A stretch of 64,000 nucleotides of DNA from Patescibacteria group bacterium (GCA_040384285.1 JAZKJN010000006.1:46709-110708), one strand, 5' to 3'; positions 41,110 through 53,467 are shown, counted from the first letter of the stretch. Numbers and translations: made by a program. The notes: generated from the sequence alone by a model not told the origin.

Positions 41110-42063
41110 ATGCTAATGTCAATAGATAAATATGCCCGATTTTATAAAGATTTTATCTCGCCTGTGTATGATAGGTTGGTGAAACAAAATCAAAAAGAAA
41201 CAATAATTTTAGAGAGTCAATCAATCCCCCACCTTCTGCAACATATCCCTCATCCACCAAAGAAACTTTTTCTGCAGGGCAAGCTTCCCCACCCTGAAGC
41301 AAAGATTCTCTGTGTAGTGGGATCAAGAAAATATTCAAAGTATGGAGAAGAGGTGACAAAAAAACTCGTCATGGGGCTCAAGGGATACAATATATGTATT
41401 GTCTCGGGCTTGGCACTTGGGATAGACAGTATTGCGCATCGTACAGCACTGGAAACTGGTTTGCATACTGTTGCCTTCCCTGGCTCCGGACTTGATCCTT
41501 CAGTTCTCTACCCTCCTCGACATGCCCGACTCGCAGAAGAAATACTCTACGCGGGTGGAGCTCTGATATCAGAATTTGAAATGCACGAGCGAGCCGCACG
41601 GTGGATGTTTGAAAAAAGAAATCGACTGCTCGCAGGCTTTTCTCATGCAACACTCATCATAGAAGCAGGACTGAAATCCGGCACCATGATCACTTCCAAA
41701 TACGCAAACGACTACAACCGCGACCTCGCTGCAGTTCCAGGAGATATTTTCTCGCCCCTTTCCGAAGGACCACATCAATTGATCCGTATGGGTGCAGTAC
41801 CCGTCACCTCAAGTAGAGATATTTTAGAAATGCTTGGATTTGAATTGCCAGATGAGCCTCGAGTACCTATCCAAGAAAATCTTTTACTTTCACTCACTGA
41901 AAACGAACGCAAAATTATCGAATATTTAAAAGTTGAGTCGCACACCAGCGAGGAGCTTGTCAGAAAAAGCGAACTTTCTGCACGAGAGATCAATGAAATA
42001 GTTTCGTCGCTTGAAATACAAGGACTGGTAGATACTTCGTATGGGAAAGTAAAATTGAAATAA
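41110..42063 (+). CDS. dprA: DNA-processing protein DprA (Smf).
   Basis: VVGSRKYSKYGEEV...IVSGLALGIDSIAHRTALE...GSGLD plus a C-terminal winged helix. Confidence 0.8.
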   Translation: MLMSIDKYARFYKDFISPVYDRLVKQNQKETIILESQSIPHLLQHIPHPPKKLFLQGKLPHPEAKILCVVGSRKYSKYGEEVTKKLVMGLKGYNICIVSGLALGIDSIAHRTALETGLHTVAFPGSGLDPSVLYPPRHARLAEEILYAGGALISEFEMHERAARWMFEKRNRLLAGFSHATLIIEAGLKSGTMITSKYANDYNRDLAAVPGDIFSPLSEGPHQLIRMGAVPVTSSRDILEMLGFELPDEPRVPIQENLLLSLTENERKIIEYLKVESHTSEELVRKSELSAREINEIVSSLEIQGLVDTSYGKVKLK

Positions 42064-42109
42064 AAAAAGCGATGTCCTGTGACACCGCCTTTGCAGTTTG
42101 ACCTCAATC

Positions 42110-43036
42110 TCACGACATCCAATGAGCTTGGAATTCCTCCAGCGATAGCCGTGAGGCTCTGTGGAAGATGTTGCGATATCGCTTCGTCGTGTCCTGGACA
42201 GCCTTGGATGAAAAAGAAAGTGGCTTCTTAGGGCCGCTCGCCCATTCCCTTTCGGCTTCGTCCCGAAGAGGCTGCTTGTCGAGAAACAATGAATCTTCCC
42301 CCTCCTTGATCTCGTAGAGCTCAGTAAATCGACTACTGTCAGGAGTGACAACTTCATCAGCCATATAGAACTTGCCATTATCATCGAATCCCACTTCAAA
42401 CTTGGAATCCACGAGTTCAATCCGATGACCTAAGAGCAAGTCGCGTGTACAATTGTACACGCGCGCCGACAAGGCACAAGCTTCTGGATACGCCCCCTCC
42501 ACAAAAGCAGCGGAGATAGGATCATCTGTATCTGACTTGTGGGTAGGAGTGAACACGGGCTGAGGAAAACGATGCATGAGTTTGATACCCCGCGGTAAAT
42601 CGAGACCATAGGGATCGGGCTCACCCTTTGAATAGAACTTCCTCCACAGACTACCGGCCATGTAGGCTCGGAAAATAAACTCAAAAGGAATGATGGTGAG
42701 TTTTTTCACAATGATTGCACGAAGATGCAGATCATCAGGGTAATCGAACCGATTACCTGGCAAGTATTTGTAGATCTTGAGACCATACACCATCAAGTGA
42801 TGGGGGATTCCTTTCTGTGTAAGGAGACCTGTGAACCAGAAGATGGTGAACGCAGTGAGCACATAGTCCTTTTGGGGAATTGTATTCAGATGAATCACAT
42901 CGTGGGTGGAAACCCTGCATGTCGCCACGATCAAGAGGAGGTCAGGATGGCCGGGAATTTCAAACGTATCCCGAGTCTTGCCCTGATGGACAAGTTTGAG
43001 ACTCGAGAGAGCGGGCGGAAAAGACAGTTTTTTCAT
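42110..43036 (-). CDS. purC: Phosphoribosylaminoimidazole-succinocarboxamide synthase (SAICAR synthetase).
   Basis: HQGKTRD, SKFEVG and VTPDSSRF motifs. Confidence 0.8.
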   Translation of the reverse strand: MKKLSFPPALSSLKLVHQGKTRDTFEIPGHPDLLLIVATCRVSTHDVIHLNTIPQKDYVLTAFTIFWFTGLLTQKGIPHHLMVYGLKIYKYLPGNRFDYPDDLHLRAIIVKKLTIIPFEFIFRAYMAGSLWRKFYSKGEPDPYGLDLPRGIKLMHRFPQPVFTPTHKSDTDDPISAAFVEGAYPEACALSARVYNCTRDLLLGHRIELVDSKFEVGFDDNGKFYMADEVVTPDSSRFTELYEIKEGEDSLFLDKQPLRDEAEREWASGPKKPLSFSSKAVQDTTKRYRNIFHRASRLSLEEFQAHWMS

Positions 43037-43130
43037 GAGAGGAATCTTTCGTTGTTTTACTCACAGTTTATGTCGAGGACGCCTAGGAAACGTCTGGGGT
43101 AAAATTACAACAAATCATAGAGAAAGGCAA

Positions 43131-43697
43131 TTAATACTTCCTGATCACCCCCTTCACCACCGCAGCAATATTCATCTCATATTCAGGATAAATGGCACTG
43201 TACTTTTTGTTTGCAGGTTCAAGGAAAATTGCCTTGCCTGGCTTTTTACGTAAATATTTCATGGTCCATCCACCGTCCACTTCAGCAATGACGATGTCAC
43301 CATCTTTTGGTTCCTTCACACGTTCGACGACAACAAGATCACCTTCTTGTATCGCTGCTTCGATCATTGAGTCCCCTTTCACCTCGAGAATAAAAGTTTT
43401 AGAAGCATCTCGTACGAGGTATTCCTCAAAATTCATCATATCTAAAAGCTCTTCTTCAGCCACTGTGGGCAGTCCAGCTTCCACAAGCCCCAAAAAAGGC
43501 ACTTCACCGATCATTGTTTTCGGTGTGAGCCTTCCTTGAGCATCTTTTGCTATAGCACCTTCCGCAACCAGCTTGTTCACAAGCTTGTACACTGCATTCT
43601 TGGACTTGAAACCGAGAAGATCCATGATCTCCGTATAGCTCGGCATACGTTTCTTGCTCTTATAAAAAGAAATGATTTTGTTCTTGTAGTCAGACAT
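43131..43697 (-). CDS. lexA: LexA repressor.
   Basis: N-terminal winged HTH. C-terminal S24 peptidase with GDSM and the catalytic Lys region (KYLRKK). Confidence 0.85.
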   Translation of the reverse strand: MSDYKNKIISFYKSKKRMPSYTEIMDLLGFKSKNAVYKLVNKLVAEGAIAKDAQGRLTPKTMIGEVPFLGLVEAGLPTVAEEELLDMMNFEEYLVRDASKTFILEVKGDSMIEAAIQEGDLVVVERVKEPKDGDIVIAEVDGGWTMKYLRKKPGKAIFLEPANKKYSAIYPEYEMNIAAVVKGVIRKY

Positions 43698-43700
43698 GAT

Positions 43701-43916
43701 TTAAAATACGAGAGTTGAAACGATATGATTGAGCCGGCCGAGGAAACTAAAGGATGAGCTTGGGTATCGAGTGACTGTATTGAGCTTTCGCACGAGAATC
43801 TTATGTCGCTCCCCAAGTGCCTTGTATGAACGACCTTGAATGATCCTTCGATCGATCTCTTCATTGAGCTTTTGAATCTCTTTTCGAAGCTCTTTTACAA
43901 AAGTGTGTTTGCTCAT
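43701..43916 (-). CDS. Small protein upstream of lexA, possibly DUF465/YdcH-like.
   Basis: MSKHTFVKELRKEIQKLNEEIDRRIIQGRSYKALGERHKILVRKL... Its stop lies within 4 nt of the lexA start. Confidence 0.35.
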   Translation of the reverse strand: MSKHTFVKELRKEIQKLNEEIDRRIIQGRSYKALGERHKILVRKLNTVTRYPSSSFSFLGRLNHIVSTLVF

Positions 43917-43961
43917 TGGTTTTATATAATTAATCTACTAAATCCTTATGTAGATAGTATA

Positions 43962-43979
43962 GGTGAACGCTCGTTCACC
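43962..43979 (-). promoter_or_regulatory. Putative LexA operator (Cheo-box-like, GAAC-N4-GTTC).
   Basis: Perfect palindrome GGTGAACGCTCGTTCACC about 46 nt upstream of the small ORF-lexA unit. A TATAAT-like hexamer lies beside it. Confidence 0.5.
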
Positions 43980-44001
43980 GTCAATATAAATCTGTGGATA
44001 A

Positions 44002-44343
44002 CTACTCTTTTTTCTTCTTTTTTGTTTTCACCTTTGGAAGTGGCGCATGCTCTGCAGTGATTGAGATCAATTCCCGGAGCCATTGCCGATCTTCAAGCTT
44101 GTCCGAATCAATCATCATCCAAGGTTTGGCTCCTGGATATGGTGCACCTTCTTTGTAGAGATCTTCGACAAAAGTCTTTCCTTCTTCAGTGATCTTTACA
44201 AACAGAGTATCATCGCAGACAAGGGCCACAACTTTTCCACTACAATAGAGTGCATACTCGCCAAACATTTTTCGCGATGTGACCACTTCACCTCCCGCGA
44301 GTTGATCGAGAATATAATCAATAGTCGACTGTTGCGTGGACAT
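44002..44343 (-). CDS. TfoX/Sxy N-terminal-domain protein.
   Basis: VVTSRKMFGEYALYCSGKVVALVCDDTLFVK. Lys-rich C-terminal tail. Confidence 0.6.
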   Translation of the reverse strand: MSTQQSTIDYILDQLAGGEVVTSRKMFGEYALYCSGKVVALVCDDTLFVKITEEGKTFVEDLYKEGAPYPGAKPWMMIDSDKLEDRQWLRELISITAEHAPLPKVKTKKKKKE

Positions 44344-44938
44344 GAATTGATTTTAGCACAGCCTGTCTCTCCTTGTAGTCTGGCATCACTTCCCGCACCT
44401 TATCCCAAAACTTCTTTGAATGGTTCTTCTCTACTATATGCGCAAGTTCATGTACAATCACATAGTCGACAGTCGTAAGCGGAGCCATGACAAGTCTCCA
44501 GCTAAAATTAATTGTATTTCTCGGACCACAGCTTCCCCATCGCGTCTTTGCACCATTAATACTCATTGATCGATATGTCCAACCAGTGAGCTTGCTGTAG
44601 TACTCTATTCTCTCAGTCAATATTTCTCGAGCCTTTTTCTTGTACCAGTTTTCTGTTTCTTTTTTATTCTTAAAATCGATTGTGTTTACTTCACCCAAAT
44701 ACATAAGTCTTGTATCTTTTTTCTCTACTACACGCTTACGAAAATATTCCTGCTTTTTTTCGATCCATTCACCCTTCTTTTCTACAAGCCGGTCGATGTA
44801 GCCTTTTGAAACAAACAAAGGAGCGCGGACAACCAAGGTGGCATCACGAGAGATAGTGAGGGCAATAGAACGACGACGAGAACGGATGAGGGTGTAGGCG
44901 TGGGGCATGGAGGAAGTATAGCAAAAAAACATACTCAT
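44318..44938 (-). CDS. YgjP-like (DUF45 / M48-related) metal-dependent hydrolase.
   Basis: HELAHIVEKNHS (HExxH) and WGSC motifs. It lies adjacent to hsdR. Confidence 0.7.
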   Translation of the reverse strand: MSMFFCYTSSMPHAYTLIRSRRRSIALTISRDATLVVRAPLFVSKGYIDRLVEKKGEWIEKKQEYFRKRVVEKKDTRLMYLGEVNTIDFKNKKETENWYKKKAREILTERIEYYSKLTGWTYRSMSINGAKTRWGSCGPRNTINFSWRLVMAPLTTVDYVIVHELAHIVEKNHSKKFWDKVREVMPDYKERQAVLKSIHVHATVDY

Positions 44939-44964
44939 CTCTTTTCTAAACCCATTTAAAGCCG

Positions 44965-47900
44965 CTATCTCGAAATAACGCCTAAGGGTATGAAGTTTCT
45001 ATAAACTTTTGAAACCTGAAGGTAGACTGACTCAACTACTTGTTCTAACTCCTCTTTATCCATCAGGCCCTTTTGTAATAGCAAAAGACGCACGTTTTGT
45101 CGTATTCGTGCTTTTATTGTTTCATTATTATTCCAATCAATAACAAGGTCTCTTCGAATACGTTTTACCAACTCTTTCGTGAATTCTTTAAAATCTATAT
45201 CCGATTTCTTTAGATAGGGGTCTGCCACAAGAGTGTCGTAGAAGCTTATTTCTTCGTATGACAATCCCAGGTCCTTGACCTCTCCATCAAGTTTTTTGAT
45301 TTCATCTGCAATTTCAAGAAGTCTTTTAATTATCTCTGCGGAACTAATCACGTTATTTTCGTAACTTTCGATCAAGGAGGTTAGGAGTGTGAGCATGGTC
45401 TCATATCGAGCCTTATTCATCTTCATTCGAGAGACTATTTCTTGATCGAGCAATTTGCGGACAGCATCAACTGCGAAGTTTTGAAATCTGACCTTCTTTA
45501 TTTCTTCCACAAATTTCGCATCAAATATTGAGATGCTCTTTGACTGCCCATCCTTAGCGAACAAGTCGATAACTCCTTCAGCTTGAATTGAATCCTGGAC
45601 AAGACTACGAATTGCGCTCTCTGTTTCTTCTGGAAACACAACTTTCGGCACAAGAGTTTGTTTGTTAATTCCTTCTTTAATTGCCTGCAGAAATTGCACG
45701 TCAGTTACGATATCCATTCCAGCCTGAGAAGGCATCACGAGAGCATGAAGTTTAGATAAATGATTTACTGTAGCGATATATTTCATCTTCTGATCATCCG
45801 AAAGTCGATCGTCTTTTGAAATAACCTCATTGATACACTCCTGCAACAAATTAGATAGGTCTATTCCCCTTAGATCTCTCCAACCTTTAAATTTCACTTC
45901 ACCCAAGAAAGCAATAGCTTCTCGATGGGCCTTTTTCATCTCTGAAATAATTTCATCAAGTGGTAGTAATGCATTCTTTTGAATATCAGAATCATACATC
46001 GCCAGAGCTTTCTTTAGGTTTTCAGCGATACCAATATAATCCACAATCAGACCACCTGGCTTATCTTTATACACCCGGTTCACTCGAGCAATCGCTTGCA
46101 TGAGGCCGTGATTCTTCAGGGGCTTATCGAGATACATCGTATGCGCACTTGGCACGTCAAAACCCGTCAGCCACATATCACACACAATAGCTATTTTGAG
46201 AGAGTCACTCGTTTTTTTAAATCGTTTTTCTAATTTCTTTACATCTCGCTCTGATTGAATATCACTTGCAAACTCATCACTATTTGAAATCACTACAGCA
46301 CACTCAGGTGCACCTGATATCTTTTGTATCTCTTTATACATAGATACAGCGATTCGACGACTCATAGTAACCACCATCGCCTTGCCCTCAATAGGTCGAT
46401 TATTATAGTGATTCACTATGTCTTTTGCTATCTGTTCGATACGACTTTGAGATCCGACCACTTCTTCAAGCACCGCCCATTCTTTACGAGCTTTTGCTTT
46501 TTCATCTACAATTATTTCTCCTAAGATATCATCGAACTTTGAATCAATAAATTTATCGGCGAGATGGAGTGGAACGAGCCTACCTTCATAATATATAGGG
46601 ACTGTCGCACCGTCTTCTACAGACTGCCCAATTTTGTATGAACTAATTATAGATCCGAACTCTTTCTGAGTAACTCTATTGTCTTGTGCAATAGGAGTTC
46701 CTGTAACTCCCAGGAGACTTGCGTTAGGAAGTGCTTTTCTCAATATTCCAGCAAAAATACTGTACTGTGATCTGTGTGCTTCATCGGCAATAACAATAAG
46801 ATTCTCTCTCGTTGAAAGAATGGCCACATTGTCAGGATCATCCTGAAACTTTTGTATGGTTGTAAAAATCAATTCGCCCCCAATTTTTTCTAGCTTTGAT
46901 TTTAAATCGCGAATACTATCTGCCCTCTTTGCAAATGTCTCGTATCCAGTACGTTTGAATGTTTTATAAAGTTGATCGTCTAGGTCTTCACGATCAGTCA
47001 AAAATACATACGCAGGACTTTTAAGTTCTTCAATATTTTTTGTCTTATTCACATAGAAAACCATGGAGAGTGATTTACCAGACCCCTGTGTGTGCCAGAA
47101 AACTCCAATTTTACGATCTTGTTCACCTCGTATCGAGCGTAGGGTACTTTCCACGGTCGCATTTACTCCATAGTACTGATGATATAAACACATCTTCTTG
47201 GTAAATGTTACGGCCTCACCGTCCCCGTCAGCTTCAAATACAAGGAAGTTTTGCAGTACATCCAGAAAACGCACTTTATCCAATAATCCTTTTGTTAATA
47301 TTTCTAGCTGGTTTGAGTTCTTTGGTGCATCGGTCGGAGATGTAATACCTTTCCATGTTCCATACCTTTCCCACGATGAAGAAATGGTCCCGTGTCGAGC
47401 GTTAAGAAGATCCGACAATCCAATAACTTGATTGTACAAAAACAATTTTGGAATTTCTTTTTTATAGCGCTCTATTTGTCGATACGCTTCACCAATATGA
47501 GCAGATTCTCGCACAGCACTCTTCAATTCGAATACAGTGAGGGGTAGACCGTTCACGAAGATAACGAGGTCGAGACGGGAGATAGCATCAATACCTTGTA
47601 CGGTAAATTGATTTACTGCTAGAAATTCATTTGCGGAAGGCTCCTTAAAATCTATGAGCTTCACGAGTTCTGTTTTTTCTTCTCCATCCTCTCGGAAAGT
47701 AACTTTTTTCCCATTTACAATCCATGAATACATCTCCTTGTTACCGAGCATGGGGTCACTGTGAGAGTAATCTGCTATTTCCTTTACAATGACTTCTGCT
47801 TGTTCTGCTGGTAGAGATGGGTTGATTCTTCGAACTGCCCCGAGCAGGCGATCTTTCAAAACAACGCCTTGAAAATCCTCACGTTCTGACTGAGCTTGTC

Positions 47901-48000
47901 CCGGATTGATATCTGGGCCATAGACATGCTCATACCCCTGAGCCTTAAGCCAGCCGATGAGGGATTGTTCTGTTAAATTGTTTTCATTGAAGGGGTTCAT
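44965..48000 (-). CDS. hsdR: Type I restriction enzyme R subunit.
   Basis: 1011 aa. SF2 helicase motifs (HTQGSGKS, DEAH-like VIADEAHRSQ). N-terminal nuclease region. C-terminal HsdR-C. Confidence 0.9.
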   Translation of the reverse strand: MNPFNENNLTEQSLIGWLKAQGYEHVYGPDINPGQAQSEREDFQGVVLKDRLLGAVRRINPSLPAEQAEVIVKEIADYSHSDPMLGNKEMYSWIVNGKKVTFREDGEEKTELVKLIDFKEPSANEFLAVNQFTVQGIDAISRLDLVIFVNGLPLTVFELKSAVRESAHIGEAYRQIERYKKEIPKLFLYNQVIGLSDLLNARHGTISSSWERYGTWKGITSPTDAPKNSNQLEILTKGLLDKVRFLDVLQNFLVFEADGDGEAVTFTKKMCLYHQYYGVNATVESTLRSIRGEQDRKIGVFWHTQGSGKSLSMVFYVNKTKNIEELKSPAYVFLTDREDLDDQLYKTFKRTGYETFAKRADSIRDLKSKLEKIGGELIFTTIQKFQDDPDNVAILSTRENLIVIADEAHRSQYSIFAGILRKALPNASLLGVTGTPIAQDNRVTQKEFGSIISSYKIGQSVEDGATVPIYYEGRLVPLHLADKFIDSKFDDILGEIIVDEKAKARKEWAVLEEVVGSQSRIEQIAKDIVNHYNNRPIEGKAMVVTMSRRIAVSMYKEIQKISGAPECAVVISNSDEFASDIQSERDVKKLEKRFKKTSDSLKIAIVCDMWLTGFDVPSAHTMYLDKPLKNHGLMQAIARVNRVYKDKPGGLIVDYIGIAENLKKALAMYDSDIQKNALLPLDEIISEMKKAHREAIAFLGEVKFKGWRDLRGIDLSNLLQECINEVISKDDRLSDDQKMKYIATVNHLSKLHALVMPSQAGMDIVTDVQFLQAIKEGINKQTLVPKVVFPEETESAIRSLVQDSIQAEGVIDLFAKDGQSKSISIFDAKFVEEIKKVRFQNFAVDAVRKLLDQEIVSRMKMNKARYETMLTLLTSLIESYENNVISSAEIIKRLLEIADEIKKLDGEVKDLGLSYEEISFYDTLVADPYLKKSDIDFKEFTKELVKRIRRDLVIDWNNNETIKARIRQNVRLLLLQKGLMDKEELEQVVESVYLQVSKVYRNFIPLGVISR

Positions 48001-48358
48001 GTTTTTTATATCTATCAGAAAAGACTATCACAGTGTAAAGTATAATTCCCGAAACGATAATTCCTGCACCCCATTCTATCTGATTATTAGTAAGTAAATT
48101 AACTCCGACTCCACCGCATACTACTGAAACCACGAACTTTAATATTTCATGAAAAATTAAAGTATGATTCCTACTTACCTGCACAGCATTAGTTTTATCG
48201 GCTTCATGATATTTACCTCGGTAATTCTCGAGCTCGTCCTGAGTCGTTTTTAATGATTTTTCTAATATCTTAACTTTTTCTGCCATTAACTTAAAAGCGG
48301 CAGTAGTTTTCTGCTCCTTAGGTGTAAGTCCATTTCCATTTTTATGTTTACTCGGCAT
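47984..48358 (-). CDS. Hypothetical protein with a coiled-coil N-terminus and two C-terminal TM helices, embedded in the hsd operon.
   Basis: The start is chosen at MPSKHKNGNG. The C-terminus is VVSVVCGGVGVNLL...IIVSGIILYTVIVF. It overlaps the hsdR start by 17 nt. Confidence 0.45.
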   Translation of the reverse strand: MPSKHKNGNGLTPKEQKTTAAFKLMAEKVKILEKSLKTTQDELENYRGKYHEADKTNAVQVSRNHTLIFHEILKFVVSVVCGGVGVNLLTNNQIEWGAGIIVSGIILYTVIVFSDRYKKHEPLQ

Positions 48359-48360
48359 AT

Positions 48361-48732
48361 CTATTGGAAAAATAAACTTATAGGATCTCGTTGTGACCAA
48401 GAAAAACTTTTCAGCGGCTTTAGAGGGACATGTTGTGTAAGCGGTCTAAGGGGTGCCAACTCCACAAACCCCGGAAAGGGTTTAAGTTGTTTGAATGGAA
48501 AAAGGGGGGCAGGATAATCTATAGGTTTTTCACCAAAACCCACCACGTAACCATCCCGATCCCGCATTACATCGTTCTGAATCCATCCAACATATTCACC
48601 TGAATAGTTAAAAAGGTTTTCCCCCTTGATAAAGCCTATATTTTTTCCAGAAAAAGAAACTAGCCGCCAGTCACTAAGGAGGCGTAATACTGGTGCACCG
48701 TAACGATTGTAAATTACATTAATTTCTTTCAT
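48361..48732 (-). CDS. Hypothetical repeat protein embedded in the hsd operon.
   Basis: Internal repeats of an aromatic-x-G-x-x-V-G-W/F pattern (YNRYGAPV, NYSGEYVGW, DRDGYVVGF). Confidence 0.45.
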   Translation of the reverse strand: MKEINVIYNRYGAPVLRLLSDWRLVSFSGKNIGFIKGENLFNYSGEYVGWIQNDVMRDRDGYVVGFGEKPIDYPAPLFPFKQLKPFPGFVELAPLRPLTQHVPLKPLKSFSWSQRDPISLFFQ

Positions 48733-48736
48733 GGAT

Positions 48737-49918
48737 TTAAATTAATTTTACAAGTAATCTCTCTCTCATTTTTGCTAGATTCTTTTTTTCTTTATCGAGT
48801 ACCTTAATTCTTTTCTTCATAGAATTAACCATGAGTTCAAATTTTATTAACACAGTTTCTTCTGGAACTATAATCAGAATGGAGTTAAGATTTTGTTGAG
48901 TAATCTTTGGCTGCACTCCACCTGTGATGTAAGAATCTATGTTTATATTTCTTATTGATAAATATAGAAAATAATTTGATACCTTATCTCCCGAGATTAT
49001 ATGAGCATGATTATTCACCCAAAAATCACCGTCGACCAAGTGAATGACAGGGGTATTTTTTCTTGTTTTTACACTTCCGTCCTCAGCAAATAATATATAT
49101 TCACCAGAAAATATTGACTTGTCGACATAATCAAGGACTCCATTTGCTCCATAGTAGGGGATTTTACCTCTTCGTTTATTTCTTTGCATAGAAGAGAGCG
49201 GGATCCTTTTATTGTCATGATTTTTTGAAATATTACCTAGAGAAGAGACTTCCCACCCCTGTGGAATCTTCCCCAAATCACTATCAACCATTCTTATTTT
49301 TTCCCATCCAGGAAAGCGGAAATTTATAAACCATTCATCAAAGAGGGCTTGTGCCACAGTCTCAAGGTTTTTAATTATTTTGTGATTATTTTCAATCTTT
49401 TCATCATATACATTCAAAATCTCTGCGATTCTTTTTTGAGTTGAGATATCTGGTACAGAAACGCTCACATGTTCAAAACTATCCTTAGTAATAGTATCAA
49501 AAACAGCACCGTGCACTATTTGTGTTAATTTAGGTATAGATGATTTGAGTAAATAGTATAGGTAACTTTGATCCATGTCTCTTTTAGCTCTAATACCGTA
49601 ACATGATTGATTAAACGCCATCGGACGAGATAATTGCGCCAAAGCACCCACGGTACCTCTGGCAGAAATGATAATATCGCCTTTATCTAGAACTCGCGTT
49701 GAAGAATTTTCTACCCCCACCTGAGTAATCTTTTTCTCCGCATTTGAAACCCATCTAAAATCATTATTGAAATCGACTACCGACAACCATGGAACGTCTC
49801 CATTCCAATATTCTTTTACCGTTGTCTTTGGAGTTCCACCTCCAACAAGATCAATGAACGAGGACAAGGCCCCTGTTCTCTTATTTGAAGTATTTATTTT
49901 TTCCAGTAATTTACTCAT
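48737..49918 (-). CDS. hsdS: Type I R-M specificity subunit.
   Basis: Two target-recognition halves separated by conserved helical spacer motifs. Overall HsdS pattern. Confidence 0.8.
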   Translation of the reverse strand: MSKLLEKINTSNKRTGALSSFIDLVGGGTPKTTVKEYWNGDVPWLSVVDFNNDFRWVSNAEKKITQVGVENSSTRVLDKGDIIISARGTVGALAQLSRPMAFNQSCYGIRAKRDMDQSYLYYLLKSSIPKLTQIVHGAVFDTITKDSFEHVSVSVPDISTQKRIAEILNVYDEKIENNHKIIKNLETVAQALFDEWFINFRFPGWEKIRMVDSDLGKIPQGWEVSSLGNISKNHDNKRIPLSSMQRNKRRGKIPYYGANGVLDYVDKSIFSGEYILFAEDGSVKTRKNTPVIHLVDGDFWVNNHAHIISGDKVSNYFLYLSIRNINIDSYITGGVQPKITQQNLNSILIIVPEETVLIKFELMVNSMKKRIKVLDKEKKNLAKMRERLLVKLI

Positions 49919-49920
49919 AA

Positions 49921-51714
49921 TTAAAATCCAAGTTCCTTAAGATTCTTTTCGATCTCTTTTTCAAGCTCTCGACCTTTTATAAATTGCTCCCGAAGCTCAC
50001 CTGAAAGCTTACTCATTTTTTCTTCAAATGAAATTCCATCATCTTCAATGTCCGCAAGCCCGACATATCTACCAGGAGTGAGGACGTATCCATTCTTTTT
50101 TATTTCCTCCGCATTTGCAGATTTACAGAAACCTAAAACATCTTTATATTTTGGCACTCCTGATTCCCCGCGCCATGCACTGACGGTGTCTGTAATTTTT
50201 CTAACATGATCCTCATTGAAAATTACTTGTTTACGAGAAATCTGCTCAAAGATTTCTCGAGCATCAATAAAGAGAGTCTCTCCCTTTCGTTTTCGAAAGC
50301 GGTCCCCTCCTTTATTTTTTGCCAAGAACCAAAGTGACACCGGCAGCGATACATTATAGAAAAGTTTGGAAGGACAAGATACTATCACATCTACCAGGTC
50401 AGCTTCGACAAGTTTTTGTCGAAGATCTCCTTCCTTACCCGACACAGCTAATGCACCGTTTGGCATAACGAATCCCGCCTGTCCCTTTGGTGAGAGATGG
50501 TGAATGAAGTGTTGCACCCACATAAAGTTTGCATTTCCAGATGGAGGTGTACCAAGCGTGATGCGAGGGTCATTATCAGAAAGCTTCGACGGTTCCCATT
50601 CTGCGTTAAATGGTGGGTTCGCAATGATAAAATCTGCTTGGAGGTGGGGAAATTTGTCTTGATAATAAGTATTACCTAGCTCGATCTTTCCGGAAAGTCC
50701 ACGGATAGCGAGGTTCATTTTACAAAGACGAAGAGTGGTTTGATTGCTCTCTTGACCACTAATTGCCAGCTTTGACGGATCCATCTTTTGTTCTCGTAAA
50801 TACTGCCCCATGGACACAAACATTCCTCCGCTACCACATGCAGGGTCCATTACCCTTGCATTTTCATAAGGCTTGAGGATTTCTACAAGTAATTTAACAA
50901 TAGAGCGTGGCGTGAAAAATTCGCCTCCACGTCTTCCTTCAGATGAGGCAAATTGACCCAAGAAATATTCGTAGATACGTCCCAAGATATCTTTTTCTCT
51001 ATCAAAATCATGATCAAAAGAAATTTGTGAAAATATGTTGACGAGTTCGCCTAGAACTGTGTGGTCAAGATTGGTTTTTGTGTATACGCGAGGAAGCACA
51101 TTTTCAAGCTGTAAGAGATTGTCTTTCTCAATAAGCTCCATTGCATTATCAAGAATTTTTCCCAATTCCGGACTCATCACCTTTGTTTGCAGATATTCCC
51201 ATCGGGATTTAGTGGGTACATAGAACACACCCTCAGAGGTGTAGAAGTCCTTTGTTTCAAGGATTGCCTTGCGTGCTTCCTCAGTCGTTACATAAAAATC
51301 CTCATCTTTGGGATTAGAAGTCTTTTCAGTGAGAACTTCACGACGTTTATAAAAAGAATCTGAAATATATTTCAAAAAAAGTAGCCCCAGAACAATATTT
51401 TTATATTCAGATACATCGATATTTCCCCGAAGTCTGTCGGCGGCTGCCCAAAGCTCCTTTTCAAACCCAAGATCGTGATGATTATTCTTTGTAAGAACAT
51501 TTTCCGTATTTTTCTTTTGTTCATTCTGAATACGATCTTGTATCTCCTTTGAAAGAGAAGATTTGGGTATTAGGTATGTTGGTTTTGAAGAATCTCCGAC
51601 ATTCTCAGCCTTAATTTCACCTTTTTTGATCTTTTGATGCACGGCAATACGGGTAATACCTAGCATCTTGGCTAGCTGTGTTGGAGTTACAAATTTGGAT
51701 TTATCGATTGACAT
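49921..51714 (-). CDS. hsdM: Type I R-M N6-adenine DNA methyltransferase with an N-terminal HTH extension.
   Basis: N-terminal HTH (TPTQLAKMLGITRIAVHQKIKKGEI), N6_Mtase motifs (MDPACGSGGMF, ANPPFN) and HsdM_N. Confidence 0.9.
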   Translation of the reverse strand: MSIDKSKFVTPTQLAKMLGITRIAVHQKIKKGEIKAENVGDSSKPTYLIPKSSLSKEIQDRIQNEQKKNTENVLTKNNHHDLGFEKELWAAADRLRGNIDVSEYKNIVLGLLFLKYISDSFYKRREVLTEKTSNPKDEDFYVTTEEARKAILETKDFYTSEGVFYVPTKSRWEYLQTKVMSPELGKILDNAMELIEKDNLLQLENVLPRVYTKTNLDHTVLGELVNIFSQISFDHDFDREKDILGRIYEYFLGQFASSEGRRGGEFFTPRSIVKLLVEILKPYENARVMDPACGSGGMFVSMGQYLREQKMDPSKLAISGQESNQTTLRLCKMNLAIRGLSGKIELGNTYYQDKFPHLQADFIIANPPFNAEWEPSKLSDNDPRITLGTPPSGNANFMWVQHFIHHLSPKGQAGFVMPNGALAVSGKEGDLRQKLVEADLVDVIVSCPSKLFYNVSLPVSLWFLAKNKGGDRFRKRKGETLFIDAREIFEQISRKQVIFNEDHVRKITDTVSAWRGESGVPKYKDVLGFCKSANAEEIKKNGYVLTPGRYVGLADIEDDGISFEEKMSKLSGELREQFIKGRELEKEIEKNLKELGF

Positions 51715-52053
51715 ACCTACAAGCTTAGCAAACTACTTTACACATGTAAAGTCCTATATTCATAATGAGGGTGAAAAGTTAGTAATAGTCCCCTTGACTT
51801 CCCCATTAAAAATGCCATAATCGTATCGCAAAGATGGAACAGGTTTCCAAAGACCAGGTAGTGGCGTGTGGGCTATCACAGTGCGAAATAGTTCACGCGA
51901 CATGTACGGGTGGAATAGAGACCAAGTCCTTTGCTGAGGTGGTATTGAAACACCAACAGTGACCAACGTACCTTAAGTGGCGACGTATGGACTGACAAAC
52001 ATCGAAAACTTGTTATTGTATCTCTGTTGAGCGGTCTAACCGTATAGAGAATG

Positions 52054-52087
52054 GCCACAGCGATTCGCACCGCTGTGGCTTTTTTAT
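52054..52087 (+). terminator. Intrinsic terminator in an ORF-poor spacer.
   Basis: gccacagcg-attcgcac-cgctgtggc followed by a T6 tract. Confidence 0.45.
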
Positions 52088-52270
52088 TTTTCAACTTTAC
52101 AACCCCAAACCCCATCTGCTACTATTACGAGCACATGAAGACATCACTTCATACAAAGCGAGCAGCGATTTATACCACCCTGTTTACAGTGTGGGATTTT
52201 TCGTTCAGTGCCGGCTTGTGTGATGGTGATTCGCTCTAAGGTATGAGATGAGAGAATTACGATGATAGAA

Positions 52271-52303
52271 GCGGGCTCTGAACACCAGAGTCCGCTTTGT
52301 TGT
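52271..52303 (+). terminator. Intrinsic terminator-like hairpin.
   Basis: gcgggctct-gaacacc-agagtccgc followed by TTTGTTGT. Confidence 0.35.
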
Positions 52304-52363
52304 ATGGTACGCGTGTGCGTATCATAAAGAAACAAAGGTTCTTCACTTCAACTCATTAAACGT

Positions 52364-52798
52364 ATGAATGCTGCTAGTTTTTCTCCCTGTGTGAGTCATC
52401 GGGGCTGTGGAGGTGGACCAACCGCAGAGGAAATTGCTCGTGAGTTTCTTCTGCGAAACCCAAATCCAGAAATCCATAGAAAAAAACACACAACAACCCT
52501 GCTTCCAGAACCTGGACCCAAAGTGATTCATGGGTGGATCGCCTTACCATCTCCACGGCAATGGTTTCCGGTATATCGTTTCAAGAGTGACGCTCAGTGG
52601 ATGACTATCGCCCAGTACAACGAAGCCAAGAGAGCAGGTGCGAAGGTGGGAGATTTCTTTACCACGAAACGTGGATATGGACCCGCAGACCCCGCTCGAC
52701 ACACTCACGCATGGAGGATCACCTCGGGTAAGCGCAGAGTTCCTGTTATTGCCAAGGATGGTGTATTTGTCCCACACAATCGCGCACACGAAGACTGA
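52364..52798 (+). CDS. Hypothetical protein.
   Basis: 144 aa ORF, GC-richer than average. The start is uncertain. Confidence 0.35.
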   Translation: MNAASFSPCVSHRGCGGGPTAEEIAREFLLRNPNPEIHRKKHTTTLLPEPGPKVIHGWIALPSPRQWFPVYRFKSDAQWMTIAQYNEAKRAGAKVGDFFTTKRGYGPADPARHTHAWRITSGKRRVPVIAKDGVFVPHNRAHED

Positions 52799-52819
52799 AA
52801 ATTTTTGAGTCCCCTTATC

Positions 52820-52856
52820 ACCACTATGGTTCGAGAAGTTCCATAGTGGTTTTTTA
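52820..52856 (+). terminator. Intrinsic terminator.
   Basis: accactatgg-loop-ccatagtggt followed by a T5 tract. Confidence 0.5.
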
Positions 52857-52864
52857 TTTACTTT

Positions 52865-53467
52865 TTATTTTACCGACTTCTTTGATACTTTCTTAAAAAC
52901 TTTCTTTGCCTTTGGGGCTACTTCTTCTGAAGTTTCTGCTACAGGAGTTTCTGTTGTGATTTCAATTGCTTTTGCAATGGGAGAATTTTGTGTGAGGGCG
53001 AGAGTAAGTGTATGGATTGAAGAGATGAGCTTGTCCATCTTTACGGTCATTGCTTCCATTTTCTTTTGGAGATCTCCTGTTGTGTTGGGAGTAGGAGCTC
53101 CGGCATATGATGGCTTTGGAGAATTAAAATCTCGTTTCATCTCACTTCGTCCTTCAGTTCGGAAATCTTTTCTGTTTGATCGTTCTCCACCCATAGCAGA
53201 TCGTCCGGCAAAACAGTCACGGCAATAGACTGGCTTGTCACCGTTTGGTCGGAATGGAACTTCGCATGTCTTGCCACAGCTTGCGCATACTGCACTGTGA
53301 AGAGTTATCGGGCCTCGCTCTGCGCGTGGACCATCAAATCCTGCACGTCCTCCTCGGTCTCCTCCTCGATCACCACCACGAAAAGCTCCTCCTGGTCGGA
53401 AGGCTCCACGATTGCTACCTGTTCGTTCATCTCGTCCTCCTCGGTCATTGCTTCTGAAGTTTTTCAT
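52865..53467 (-). CDS. RGG/Arg-Gly-rich protein with a CxxC-x17-CxxC zinc ribbon (zf-trcl-like).
   Basis: CASCGKTCEVPFRPNGDKPVYCRDCF. The N-terminus is a GGDRGGDRGGRAGF repeat region. Confidence 0.5.
   Translation of the reverse strand: MKNFRSNDRGGRDERTGSNRGAFRPGGAFRGGDRGGDRGGRAGFDGPRAERGPITLHSAVCASCGKTCEVPFRPNGDKPVYCRDCFAGRSAMGGERSNRKDFRTEGRSEMKRDFNSPKPSYAGAPTPNTTGDLQKKMEAMTVKMDKLISSIHTLTLALTQNSPIAKAIEITTETPVAETSEEVAPKAKKVFKKVSKKSVK

What the first reader, a model, noticed from the sequence alone, without database searches (positions are those of the whole stretch)
44002..51714. Type I R-M island with two uncharacterised genes inserted between hsdS and hsdR, plus YgjP/DUF45 hydrolase and TfoX-N
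hsdM-hsdS-[123 aa repeat protein]-[124 aa coiled-coil/2TM protein]-hsdR-[YgjP-like HExxH hydrolase]-[TfoX_N] are all co-directional and tightly packed, with overlaps of 4-26 nt. The two genes wedged between S and R are not standard hsd components. One is a beta-rich repeat protein. The other is a small membrane protein of the kind often seen as abortive-infection effectors or R-M modulators. DUF45/YgjP is known to co-occur with type I R-M loci but its role is unknown. The TfoX N-domain links the island to competence/DNA uptake.
Basis: partly seen in the sequence, partly recalled or inferred. Interest (0 to 1): 0.55.

Follow-up and report, generated by a model that had tools for sequence, protein, structure and literature searches.

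The report
Beta-flower/2TM gene pair riding restriction operons
Two small genes wedged inside a restriction-modification operon of a Patescibacteria genome form a conserved, mobile pair (a 'beta-flower' protein and a new two-pass membrane protein) that recurs inside type I, IIG-like and III restriction systems, so it is probably an unrecognised accessory phage-defence module.

Summary
The gene layout is real. On the minus strand the order is hsdM-hsdS-ORF123-ORF124-hsdR-YgjP-TfoX_N. All seven genes are co-directional, with junctions from a 26-nt gap to a 26-nt overlap. The R-M genes look intact.

ORF123 is not unclassified. It matches Pfam PF21784, the '4-fold beta-flower' (E 6e-24). ORF124 matches no Pfam, NCBIfam, PADLOC or PDB family. 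It is modelled as a long cytoplasmic helical stalk followed by a two-helix membrane hairpin. Neither ORF is an hsdS remnant.

The main result is that the two genes form a conserved pair. In about 28 distinct loci the beta-flower gene is immediately followed by an ORF124 homologue. All loci with a named source are Patescibacteria, apart from one partial Bacteroidota-binned partner. Of 24 informative contexts, 16 sit inside or beside R-M systems or DNA methyltransferases:
- 11 type I, spanning three HsdR C-terminal families
- 2 type IIG-like
- 1 type III, between mod and res
- 2 beside LexA-fused methyltransferases

Others lie in defence-like neighbourhoods or stand alone. The only experimentally tested PF21784 protein, Cernunnos, is an anti-phage gene.

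Best reading (confidence 0.42): an autonomous accessory defence module with a membrane effector that preferentially lodges in R-M operons. The TfoX/competence link is not supported. No function was tested.

The parts
49921..51714 (-). hsdM, type I methyltransferase subunit (597 aa) with an extra N-terminal HTH_17-like domain (residues 9-55)
   Evidence: Pfam N6_Mtase 3e-103, HsdM_N 5e-25, HTH_17 5.6e-4 (below Pfam's cut-off). PADLOC MTase_I 1e-157. The DPACGSGG and NPPF motifs are readable in the translation.
48737..49918 (-). hsdS, specificity subunit (393 aa), complete with two target-recognition domains
   Evidence: Pfam Methylase_S 2e-43 in two stretches. PADLOC Specificity_I 2.5e-84.
48361..48732 (-). 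ORF123, beta-flower protein (PF21784), first gene of the conserved pair
   Evidence: Pfam Bflower 6.1e-24, 85 bits against a 25-bit cut-off, covering residues 7-116. Homologues at 47-70% identity all carry PF21784. No PADLOC, NCBIfam or PHROG match.
48523..48732 (-). ORF123 residues 1-70: four-hairpin (8-strand) beta-flower core
48400..48516 (-). ORF123 residues 73-111: Pro-rich period-3 repeat with a hydrophobic residue every third position, read here as a polyproline-II-like amphipathic stripe (inference)
   Evidence: In one phase 11-13 of 14-16 positions are hydrophobic, against 0-4 in the other two phases, with 8-13 prolines, in 21 of 22 homologues analysed; in the 22nd (L024) the script picked the wrong segment. 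The repeated residue switches together between homologues (F, L, Y or I). pLDDT is below 50. Solo phage and Flavobacterium homologues carry the same tail.
48364..48399 (-). ORF123 residues 112-123: conserved C-terminal tail, W-S-x-x-D-P-I-S-L-F-F
   Evidence: W112, S113, D116, P117, S119, L120, F121 and F122 are invariant among the 7 closest homologues. pLDDT is about 80-85.
47984..48358 (-). ORF124, new small membrane protein family, second gene of the pair; starts 2 nt after the ORF123 stop and overlaps the hsdR start by 17 nt
   Evidence: No Pfam match above cut-off, and no PADLOC, NCBIfam or PDB match. 71 clusters among 5.8 billion proteins. 154 representatives at E<=1e-3 among 1.84 billion.
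48164..48322 (-). ORF124 residues 13-65: cytoplasmic helical stalk with the conserved motif S-L-K-x-T-Q-D-E-L-E-x-Y-R-x-K-Y-H-E-A-D-K
   Evidence: AlphaFold2 gives a continuous helix 13-90 with pLDDT 79-95. Hydrophobicity has a 3.5-residue periodicity: power 20.9 against 6.2 +/- 5.9 in shuffles, with 60 of 2000 shuffles reaching it. S35 and Q40 are invariant; L32, L36, E44, R47 and K55 are >=93% conserved in 45 sequences.
48005..48163 (-). ORF124 residues 66-118: two-helix transmembrane hairpin, both termini cytoplasmic
   Evidence: Two hydropathy peaks at residues 72-89 and 97-114. The loop between them is neutral and 2-11 aa long, and both flanks are net positive, across 16 homologues. Second helix 94-118. 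E71, K74, S78 and G83 are conserved.
44965..48000 (-). hsdR, restriction/translocase subunit (1011 aa), apparently intact
   Evidence: Pfam HSDR_N 2.5e-44, SWI2_SNF2 4.9e-72, T1R_D3-like, T1RH-like_C 1.5e-58. TIGR00348 6e-179, above cut-off. The nuclease motif D-x13-E-L-K, the GSGKS motif and the DEAH motif are readable in the translation.
44318..44938 (-). YgjP-like HExxH metallohydrolase (206 aa); an accessory of the operon, not part of the pair
   Evidence: Pfam YgjP-like 1.6e-52. A YgjP-like gene also closes the type I locus L010 and lies 3-7 kb from the pair in L001 and L033.
44002..44343 (-). TfoX_N domain protein (113 aa); overlaps YgjP by 26 nt but is specific to this locus
   Evidence: Pfam TfoX_N 1e-15. 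No homologue was found in any of the 29 loci then held.

Best explanation
ORF123 and ORF124 are one functional unit: a mobile two-gene cassette that lodges in restriction-modification operons. The R-M system here is an intact type I enzyme.

Shown:
- The beta-flower gene is immediately followed by the 2TM gene in every locus where both ends are visible.
- Inside R-M operons, the start of the beta-flower gene overlaps the stop of the upstream methyltransferase or specificity gene, and the R gene begins 1-5 nt after the 2TM gene or overlaps it. The pair is therefore co-expressed with the R-M genes.
- Closely related variants of the pair sit in different R-M types, and some stand alone.

Inferred mechanism:
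- The pair is a self-sufficient second-line phage-defence module. ORF123 is a soluble cytoplasmic sensor or regulator. It has a beta-flower core, a long amphipathic Pro-rich period-3 tail, and a conserved C-terminal tail.
- ORF123 holds ORF124 in check, probably by binding ORF124's conserved cytoplasmic stalk.
- An infection cue releases ORF124. The cue may be restriction failing or being inhibited by a phage anti-restriction factor. ORF124 then assembles through its stalk into a membrane-disrupting oligomer that stops growth or kills the cell.
- Sitting inside an R-M operon gives co-expression and co-transfer with the first-line defence, as PrrC has within EcoprrI.
For: Pair conservation: the two genes are adjacent (gap -8 to +9 nt wherever start codons are clear) in 34 of the 36 survey loci fetched up to that point plus the window; L029 also holds both by tblastn, and L032 has the partner alone. 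L038 and L039, fetched later, also carry the pair. Pairwise identities of the two proteins correlate (r 0.47; 0 of 2000 permutations reach it).

Context, by distinct locus: type I in the window, L004, L009, L010, L015, L016, L017, L022, L030, L035 and L036, with HindI-like, EcoEI and EcoR124 HsdR C-terminal domains. Type III, mod-pair-res, in L007. Type IIG-like in L006 and L033. LexA-fused Dam or Dcm methyltransferases in L019 and L026. A defence island with AIPR, DUF6119 and an OLD-family ATPase in L014.

Operon integration: 4-19 nt start/stop overlaps with the upstream R-M gene, against gaps of 42-115 nt when standalone.

Module mobility: one partner subfamily occurs standalone, beside a LexA-Dam methyltransferase and beside a type IIG-like enzyme. 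Another occurs in type IIG-like, type III and helicase contexts.

Fold precedent: Cernunnos, a PF21784 protein, gave anti-phage protection in the V. cholerae integron screen (10.1101/2024.07.02.601686) and was recovered again in an independent screen (10.64898/2026.03.17.712381).

Concept precedent: PrrC is embedded in a type IC locus and acts as an 'RM guardian' (PMC12707154; PMC2610378).

Effector plausibility: a confident stalk plus 2TM hairpin with both termini cytoplasmic, and conserved polar and Gly residues in TM1.
Against: - No function was tested. The argument rests on gene neighbourhood plus one experimental precedent for the fold.
- Patescibacterial type I operons are crowded with other embedded genes (NYN, Fic, Bro-N, DUF2130, HTH_3/M78, Hypoth_Ymh). 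R-M operons may simply be permissive landing sites.
- No Bflower-partner fusion was found among the 10 longer family members scanned.
- One locus has an intact partner with no beta-flower gene (L032). That argues against a strictly toxic effector needing its neighbour.
- Neither protein matches any PADLOC model.
- The survey is small: about 28 distinct loci, many on short contigs, all found by homology to this window. No background rate of R-M adjacency was computed.
Confidence: 0.42

Rival explanations
1. The pair is a toxin-antitoxin-like addiction cassette. ORF124 is a small membrane toxin and ORF123 its upstream, translationally coupled antidote. Its role is to stabilise the R-M island or mobile element that carries it, not to sense phage.
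For: Two small, tightly coupled genes, with the putative neutraliser first and the 2TM protein second. Patchy, mobile distribution, including a copy next to a serine recombinase in L025. Standalone copies in housekeeping neighbourhoods: L001, L024, L034 and L038.
Against: ORF123 has no detectable DNA-binding or protease-labile antitoxin-type domain. An intact orphan ORF124 homologue exists without a neighbouring beta-flower gene (L032). Solo PF21784 proteins exist elsewhere, and one of them protects against phage on its own. This rival overlaps with the best explanation, because many toxin-antitoxin pairs act in abortive infection.
Confidence: 0.2
2. The pair is an R-M accessory that tethers or regulates the restriction complex at the membrane. 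For example, it could position the enzyme where foreign DNA enters, or delay or limit R-subunit activity. ORF124 would be the anchor and ORF123 the adaptor.
For: The pair sits between the modification/specificity genes and the R gene in type I and type III operons, with translational coupling on both sides. The ORF124 stalk carries invariant polar residues, suggesting a specific binding surface rather than a generic coiled coil. DNA-uptake and SOS genes (TfoX_N, DprA, LexA) lie next to the island in this window.
Against: The same module subfamily is found with unrelated R-M architectures: three HsdR families, type III Res, type IIG-like single-chain enzymes, and lone methyltransferases. It is also found with no R-M gene at all. 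A specific physical partnership is therefore hard to sustain. The position is not fixed either: in L010 the order is R-M-pair-S, and in L022 the pair follows hsdR. TfoX_N does not recur.
Confidence: 0.15
3. The pair is an unrelated hitchhiker. Its function has nothing to do with defence or R-M, and it has been inserted repeatedly at the permissive junction of R-M operons.
For: Several standalone copies lie among cell-wall, tRNA-synthetase or peptidase genes: L024, L034 and L038. R-M operons in these genomes hold many different inserted genes. The beta-flower fold is in a clan with lipid-binding Tubby-like domains (PMC10584680).
Against: 16 of 24 informative contexts are R-M or methyltransferase loci, and 2-3 more are defence-like. 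That is far above what I would expect for a random gene in a genome of about 1 Mb (my estimate; not computed). The start/stop overlaps indicate selection for co-expression. The only tested PF21784 protein is an anti-phage gene.
Confidence: 0.13
4. The two ORFs are pseudogenised fragments of a second hsdS, or are spurious ORFs.
For: Only their position next to hsdS.
Against: No similarity to any HsdS, HsdM or HsdR (best E 0.2). A strong Pfam PF21784 match. Both are conserved as full-length ORFs across dozens of loci at 25-76% identity. Confident structure models.
Confidence: 0.01

Closest known systems
Cernunnos (single-gene anti-phage cassette of the Vibrio cholerae superintegron; PF21784 domain)
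   Same: It shares the 4-fold beta-flower domain family, PF21784, with ORF123. It is the only member of that family with an experimentally shown role, and that role is phage defence.
   Different: Cernunnos is reported as a single-gene cassette. Here the beta-flower gene has a conserved 2TM partner and is usually embedded in R-M operons. Its mechanism is unknown.
PrrC / RloC 'R-M guardian' anticodon nucleases (prrC embedded in the EcoprrI type IC locus)
   Same: An accessory gene embedded in a type I R-M locus and expressed with it. It is thought to back up restriction by abortive infection when restriction is inhibited.
   Different: No sequence or domain relationship: PrrC is an ABC-ATPase-like anticodon nuclease that targets tRNA. 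The pair here has no nuclease or ATPase domain and its predicted effector is a membrane protein. PrrC depends on one specific R-M partner, whereas this pair occurs with type I, IIG-like and III systems and also alone.
Beta-flower fold families PF21784, PF21785 and PF21786 (Durairaj et al. [quoted passage not shown]
   Same: ORF123 scores 85 bits on PF21784. It is predicted as four beta-hairpins and carries [DNEQ]xxG-type motifs.
   Different: The original description gave no function or genomic context, and mentions an enclosed C-terminal hydrophobic alpha-helix in many members. Here the C-terminal half is a Pro-rich period-3 repeat plus a short conserved tail, and the family is tied to a specific partner and to R-M loci.
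Small two-TM membrane effectors of abortive-infection systems (own knowledge, not tested here: for example TM effectors of CBASS, Pycsar and retron systems) and class II holins
   Same: A small protein with a two-helix hairpin, both termini cytoplasmic, and a cytoplasmic oligomerisation-type helix. It lies next to a putative sensor or regulator gene.
   Different: No sequence or structural match to any of them. No relatives in the phage genome collection or in IMG/VR viral contigs, so a phage lysis origin is not supported.

Membership tests
Type I restriction-modification system (HsdM/HsdS/HsdR) | An N6-adenine methyltransferase subunit with SAM-binding and NPPF motifs | tested here: met
   N6_Mtase 3e-103 and HsdM_N 5e-25. 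DPACGSGG and NPPF are readable in the translation.
Type I restriction-modification system (HsdM/HsdS/HsdR) | A specificity subunit with two target-recognition domains | tested here: met
   Methylase_S 2e-43 in two stretches across 393 aa.
Type I restriction-modification system (HsdM/HsdS/HsdR) | An R subunit with a PD-(D/E)xK nuclease and an SF2 motor | tested here: met
   HSDR_N, SWI2_SNF2, T1R_D3-like and T1RH-like_C. TIGR00348 scores 597 bits against a 285-bit cut-off. GSGKS and DEAH motifs are present.
Pfam PF21784, 4-fold beta-flower | Profile score above the curated cut-off | tested here: met
   85.1 bits against 25; E 6.1e-24; profile positions 3-111 of 116.
Pfam PF21784, 4-fold beta-flower | Eight short antiparallel strands arranged as four hairpins | tested here: met
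   AlphaFold2 gives strands 3-8, 14-19, 23-26, 31-36, 39-41, 47-52, 55-58 and 63-66 with pLDDT 84-94. Fourfold symmetry was not inspected in 3D.
Pfam PF21784, 4-fold beta-flower | A semi-conserved [DNEQ]xxG motif at hairpin tips (PMC10584680) | tested here: met
   N9-R-Y-G12, E46-Y-V-G49 and D58-R-D-G61 can be read in the sequence. G12, G49, D58 and G61 are conserved in the alignments. The other hairpins have variant motifs.
Cernunnos anti-phage system | Contains a PF21784 domain | tested here: met
   for ORF123. The paper states this for Cernunnos.
Cernunnos anti-phage system | A single-gene, autonomous cassette | tested here: not met
   ORF123-type genes here are followed by the 2TM partner in every locus where the downstream DNA is present. 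Only Sucellos and Toutatis are two-gene cassettes in the paper.
Cernunnos anti-phage system | Direct sequence similarity to the V. cholerae protein | not tested
   The sequence and locus tag were not retrievable from the text or the stored supplement.
Cernunnos anti-phage system | Confers phage resistance when expressed | not testable with these tools
   Requires an experiment.
PrrC-type R-M guardian | The gene is embedded within an R-M operon | tested here: met
   Window, plus type I, type III and type IIG-like loci.
PrrC-type R-M guardian | An ABC-ATPase-like N-domain and an anticodon nuclease C-domain | tested here: not met
   No such Pfam, NCBIfam or PADLOC match for either ORF.
PrrC-type R-M guardian | Silenced by the R-M enzyme and activated by a phage anti-restriction factor | not testable with these tools
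   Requires experiments. The pair's occurrence with many R-M types and alone argues against dependence on one enzyme.
Type II toxin-antitoxin pair | Two small adjacent, co-translated genes | tested here: met
   2-nt gap in the window. Gaps of -8 to +9 nt across loci wherever start codons are clear.
Type II toxin-antitoxin pair | An antitoxin with a DNA-binding autoregulatory domain; a toxin of a known family | tested here: not met
   No HTH, RHH or AbrB domain and no toxin-family match.
Second or degenerate hsdS | Residual similarity to Methylase_S or to HsdS proteins | tested here: not met
   No Methylase_S hit. BLASTP against 5 HsdS proteins gives a best E of 0.2.

The most novel reading that the evidence does not exclude
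The pair is a type-independent 'R-M guardian'. The beta-flower protein would sense phage anti-restriction activity or failed restriction, through its flower domain or its Pro-rich amphipathic tail, and release the stalked 2TM protein to permeabilise the membrane. That would make it the first membrane-acting guardian that serves type I, IIG and III systems alike. It would also give the first mechanistic role for the beta-flower fold, and an unrecognised layer of immunity in Patescibacteria.
Probability: 0.2. Interest if true: 0.8.

Novelty: new variant of a known kind. Interest (0 to 1): 0.62.

Why it matters
- **Function for a new fold:** the beta-flower fold was defined only in 2023 and has no known mechanism. 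A conserved partner and a consistent genomic setting give it a testable functional hypothesis.
- **More R-M accessory genes:** few accessory genes embedded in R-M operons are understood; PrrC is the best-studied case. A cassette that recurs across type I, IIG-like and III systems would widen the 'second line behind restriction' idea to a membrane effector.
- **Patescibacteria immunity:** these bacteria have tiny genomes and few recognised defence systems beyond R-M. A compact two-gene add-on of about 750 bp would be relevant to how they survive phage. It would also be easy to test in E. coli.
- **A missing family:** the partner protein family is absent from Pfam, NCBIfam and PADLOC, so current defence-finding pipelines do not see it.

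Tried and rejected
- **Fused-pair structure prediction.** I built a paired, linker-fused alignment of 18 ORF123+ORF124 pairs to predict the complex.
- **Searches with the full alignments.** The search for related loci with the full diverse alignments failed because no stretch was conserved enough. I re-ran it with closer subsets.
- **PDB sequence search.** Only weak matches came back: coiled-coil-type proteins for ORF124 and a chance CysB match for ORF123.
- **Cernunnos sequence or locus tag.** Not found in the paper text or the stored supplement.
- **Phage origin.** Rejected for the pair. There were no relatives of either family in IMG/VR viral contigs. In GenBank phages there was no ORF124 homologue and only one distant solo beta-flower gene, in a Rhizobium phage with no partner.
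- **Rosetta-stone fusion.** None was found among the 10 longer family members scanned.
- **'Standalone' L001 as a decayed R-M operon.** Rejected: its upstream HTH_17 and 104-aa proteins do not resemble HsdM or HsdS.
- **Island boundaries.** No tRNA, no Rfam match and no flanking direct repeat beyond chance.
- **A shared third component.** The small upstream ORFs in standalone loci are not similar to each other.

Full report
**1. Observation**

The ORF map confirms seven co-directional genes on the minus strand between 44002 and 51714:

| Gene | Coordinates | Length |
|---|---|---|
| hsdM | 51714..49921 | 597 aa |
| hsdS | 49918..48737 | 393 aa |
| ORF123 | 48732..48361 | 123 aa |
| ORF124 | 48358..47984 | 124 aa |
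| hsdR | 48000..44965 | 1011 aa |
| YgjP-like | 44938..44318 | 206 aa |
| TfoX_N | 44343..44002 | 113 aa |

- The junctions are gaps of 2, 4, 2 and 26 nt and overlaps of 17 and 26 nt.
- The ATG start that gives 124 aa is supported by the N-termini of homologues and by the identical NCBI protein P0010.
- Pfam, PADLOC and NCBIfam confirm the type I subunits. HsdS has two target-recognition domains. HsdR has its nuclease, motor and C-terminal domains, and the catalytic motifs can be read in the translations. The R-M system looks intact.
- The source is a Patescibacteria metagenome-assembled genome.
- The island has lower GC than most of the window.
- I found no tRNA, no Rfam match and no flanking repeats at its edges.

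**2. What the two inserted genes are**

*ORF123*
- It is a clear member of Pfam PF21784, the '4-fold beta-flower' (85 bits against a 25-bit cut-off).
- The fold was first described by Durairaj et al. 2023 (PMC10584680), with no function assigned.
- AlphaFold2 with a 7-sequence alignment gives three parts:
  - a confident eight-strand core, residues 1-70, pLDDT 84-94
  - a low-confidence segment, residues 73-108
  - a confident conserved C-terminal tail, W-S-x-x-D-P-I-S-L-F-F
- The low-confidence segment is a strict period-3 repeat. In one phase, 11-13 of 14-16 positions are hydrophobic, against 0-4 in the other two phases, and there are 8-13 prolines. This held in 21 of 22 homologues; for the 22nd (L024) my script picked the wrong segment.
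- The repeated hydrophobic residue switches together between homologues: F, L, Y or I.
- I read this segment as a polyproline-II-like amphipathic stripe. That is an inference from periodicity and proline content.
- Distant solo beta-flower proteins from a Rhizobium phage and a Flavobacterium carry the same tail.

*ORF124*
- It has no match above threshold in Pfam, NCBIfam, PADLOC or PHROGs, and no match in the PDB by sequence or fold.
- AlphaFold2 with 45 sequences (mean pLDDT 86) gives one helix from residue 13 to 90, a three-residue turn, and a second helix from 94 to 118.
- Hydropathy and charge place two transmembrane segments at about 72-89 and 97-114. The loop between them is short and neutral and both flanks are net positive, so both termini are cytoplasmic. 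This holds in 16 homologues.
- The cytoplasmic stalk has 3.5-residue hydrophobic periodicity (60 of 2000 shuffles reach the observed power).
- The stalk carries invariant or near-invariant polar residues (S35, Q40, E44, R47, K55). TM1 has conserved E71, K74, S78 and G83.
- The family is small: 71 clusters among 5.8 billion proteins, and 154 representatives at E<=1e-3 among 1.84 billion. Nearly all members are 110-150 aa long.

Neither ORF resembles HsdS, HsdM or HsdR (best E 0.2). The hsdS-remnant idea is rejected.

**3. The pair is a conserved, mobile module tied to R-M systems**

I collected 38 loci by look-up of homologues and by pattern scans of genome and metagenome collections. These reduce to about 28 distinct loci.

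- The beta-flower gene is immediately followed by an ORF124 homologue wherever the downstream sequence is present.
- The one exception the other way round is L032, which has an intact partner but no detectable beta-flower gene.
- Pairwise identities of the two proteins correlate across loci (r 0.47; 0 of 2000 permutations reach it).

Contexts of the 24 informative distinct loci:

| Context | Loci |
|---|---|
| Type I operons (11) | Mostly M-S-pair-R: window, L004, L009, L035. Also L030 and L036 with extra embedded genes; L010 as R-M-pair-S-YgjP; L022 after hsdR; fragments L015, L016, L017 |
| Type III, mod-pair-res (1) | L007/L008/L028 |
| Type IIG-like fused enzymes (2) | L006, L033 |
| LexA/S24-fused Dam or Dcm methyltransferases (2) | L019, L026 |
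| Defence island: AIPR, DUF6119, OLD-family ATPase (1) | L014 |
| SLFN-like helicase / MazG / DUF559 neighbourhood (1) | L031 |
| Next to a serine recombinase (1) | L025 |
| Standalone or housekeeping (5) | L001, L024, L032, L034, L038 |

- The type I operons use three different HsdR C-terminal families: T1RH-like, EcoEI_R_C and EcoR124_C.
- Inside R-M operons the beta-flower start overlaps the upstream gene's stop by 4-19 nt. Standalone copies have gaps of 42-115 nt.
- In the M-S-pair-R and mod-pair-res operons the R gene starts 1-5 nt after the partner's stop, or overlaps it as in this window.
- Closely related partner subfamilies occur in different contexts. One is found standalone, beside a LexA-Dam methyltransferase and beside a type IIG-like enzyme. 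Another is found in type IIG-like, type III and helicase contexts. The module therefore moves independently of its R-M host.
- Every named source of a paired example is Patescibacteria, except one partial partner-only cluster binned as Bacteroidota.
- No relatives were found in IMG/VR viral contigs. In GenBank phages there is only one distant solo beta-flower gene.

**4. Mechanism**

*Shown:* two-gene conservation, operon integration, preferential R-M and defence context, predicted architectures and membrane topology.

*From the literature:*
- The only PF21784 protein with a tested role is Cernunnos, a V. cholerae superintegron cassette that protects against phage. It was recovered again in an independent screen.
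- Genes embedded in R-M loci can act as 'RM guardians'; prrC in EcoprrI is the example.

*Inferred:*
- The pair is an autonomous accessory defence module. ORF123 is a cytoplasmic sensor or regulator, and ORF124 is a membrane effector that oligomerises through its stalk.
- ORF123 may restrain ORF124 by laying its amphipathic Pro-rich tail along the stalk helix.
- Residence in R-M operons provides co-expression and co-transfer.
- The pair occurs with many R-M types and alone. Any 'guardian' trigger is therefore more likely a phage factor or a general consequence of infection than contact with one particular enzyme.

I give this reading 0.42. The rivals are a toxin-antitoxin-type addiction cassette (0.20, partly overlapping), a membrane tether or regulator of restriction (0.15), an unrelated hitchhiker (0.13), and hsdS remnants or spurious ORFs (0.01).

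**5. The other claims**

- YgjP-like genes recur with type I systems in this small sample: directly after hsdS in L010, and within 3-7 kb of the pair in L001 and L033. That agrees with the known co-occurrence but adds nothing on function.
- TfoX_N overlaps YgjP by 26 nt here but occurs in no other locus. The proposed competence link is not supported.
- LexA and DprA happen to lie next to the island.

**6. Comparison and novelty**

- The type I system is ordinary.
- ORF123 is a new member of a known but functionally obscure fold family.
- ORF124 is a family absent from the curated libraries searched.
- I found no report of the obligate pairing or of its recurrent embedding in type I, IIG-like and III R-M operons. 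My literature searches were limited to PF21784/Bflower, Cernunnos, DUF45 with type I, and prrC/rloC.
- It works like an embedded R-M accessory in the manner of PrrC, and it shares a fold with Cernunnos. It fails a defining feature of each: it has no nuclease or ATPase, and it is not a single gene.
- I rate it a new variant of a known kind.

**7. Limits**

- No experiment was done and no complex model could be made.
- The census is small and was seeded by homology to this window.
- No background rate was computed for the R-M enrichment. My view that chance adjacency would be a few per cent at most is an estimate from general knowledge of genome size and R-M content.
- Many contigs are short, so several contexts are incomplete.

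Noticed in passing
window 51550-51714 (minus strand; HsdM residues 1-55): HsdM carries an extra N-terminal HTH_17/excisionase-like domain (residues 9-55; E 5.6e-4, below Pfam's cut-off). The 79%-identical HsdM in L004 has the same length of 597 aa. This may be an autoregulatory DNA-binding head on a type I methyltransferase.
   Followed up: no
L019:913-2451 (-) and L026:178-1746 (-): DNA methyltransferases fused to a complete LexA module (LexA_DNA_bind + Peptidase_S24). L019 has a Dam-type (D12 class) enzyme. L026 has a C5 cytosine type with a Vsr gene next door. Both sit beside a Bflower/2TM pair. An SOS-cleavable methyltransferase is an unusual architecture.
   Followed up: partly
window 41110-44343: LexA (43697..43131, minus strand) lies directly downstream of TfoX_N, and DprA (41110..42063, plus strand) is 1 kb further on. 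SOS and DNA-uptake genes therefore flank the island. TfoX_N was not found at any other pair locus.
   Followed up: partly
L004, L022, L030, L035, L036: Patescibacterial type I operons are crowded with other embedded genes: NYN (L004), NYN_YacP (L022), Fic + Bro-N + a 102-aa ORF + HTH_3/Peptidase_M78 (L030), Fic + DUF2130 (L035), and a 167-aa ORF + Hypoth_Ymh (L036). These operons appear to act as landing pads for accessory and defence genes.
   Followed up: no
L037:2504-2839 (Rhizobium phage RHph_TM3_3_3) and protein P0009 (Flavobacterium): Solo beta-flower proteins with no 2TM partner carry the same period-3 hydrophobic tail, with fewer prolines. The tail is therefore a trait of the PF21784 family rather than of the Patescibacteria pair.
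   Followed up: partly
protein P0206 (211 aa, from the representative library): A distant ORF124 relative in which the stalk motif (L-S-E-F-R-x-R-F-x-E-A-E-K) is repeated three times before the 2TM hairpin.
   Followed up: no
L032:7929-8342: An intact ORF124 homologue (78% identical to the L007 partner) with no detectable beta-flower gene upstream, lying between uvrB and polA-type genes. This is the only orphan found.
   Followed up: partly
window 51715-52860: A stretch of about 1.1 kb upstream of hsdM has only short or doubtful ORFs. It contains a strong bidirectional terminator-like hairpin at 52053-52080 (10-11 bp stem, 7 GC pairs). No tRNA or Rfam family was found there.
   Followed up: partly
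window 52865-53467 (minus strand): A 200-aa protein with an N-terminal Arg/Gly-rich repeat (RGG/GDRGG) followed by a CxxC...CxxC zinc-ribbon-like motif. It was not examined.
   Followed up: no
L007:7283-7969 and L019:2584-2937: A T5orf172/MUG113 (GIY-YIG-like) gene precedes the type III mod gene in L007. By eye, the 117-aa ORF just upstream of the pair in L019 also looks GIY-YIG-like, but it has no Pfam match.
   Followed up: no
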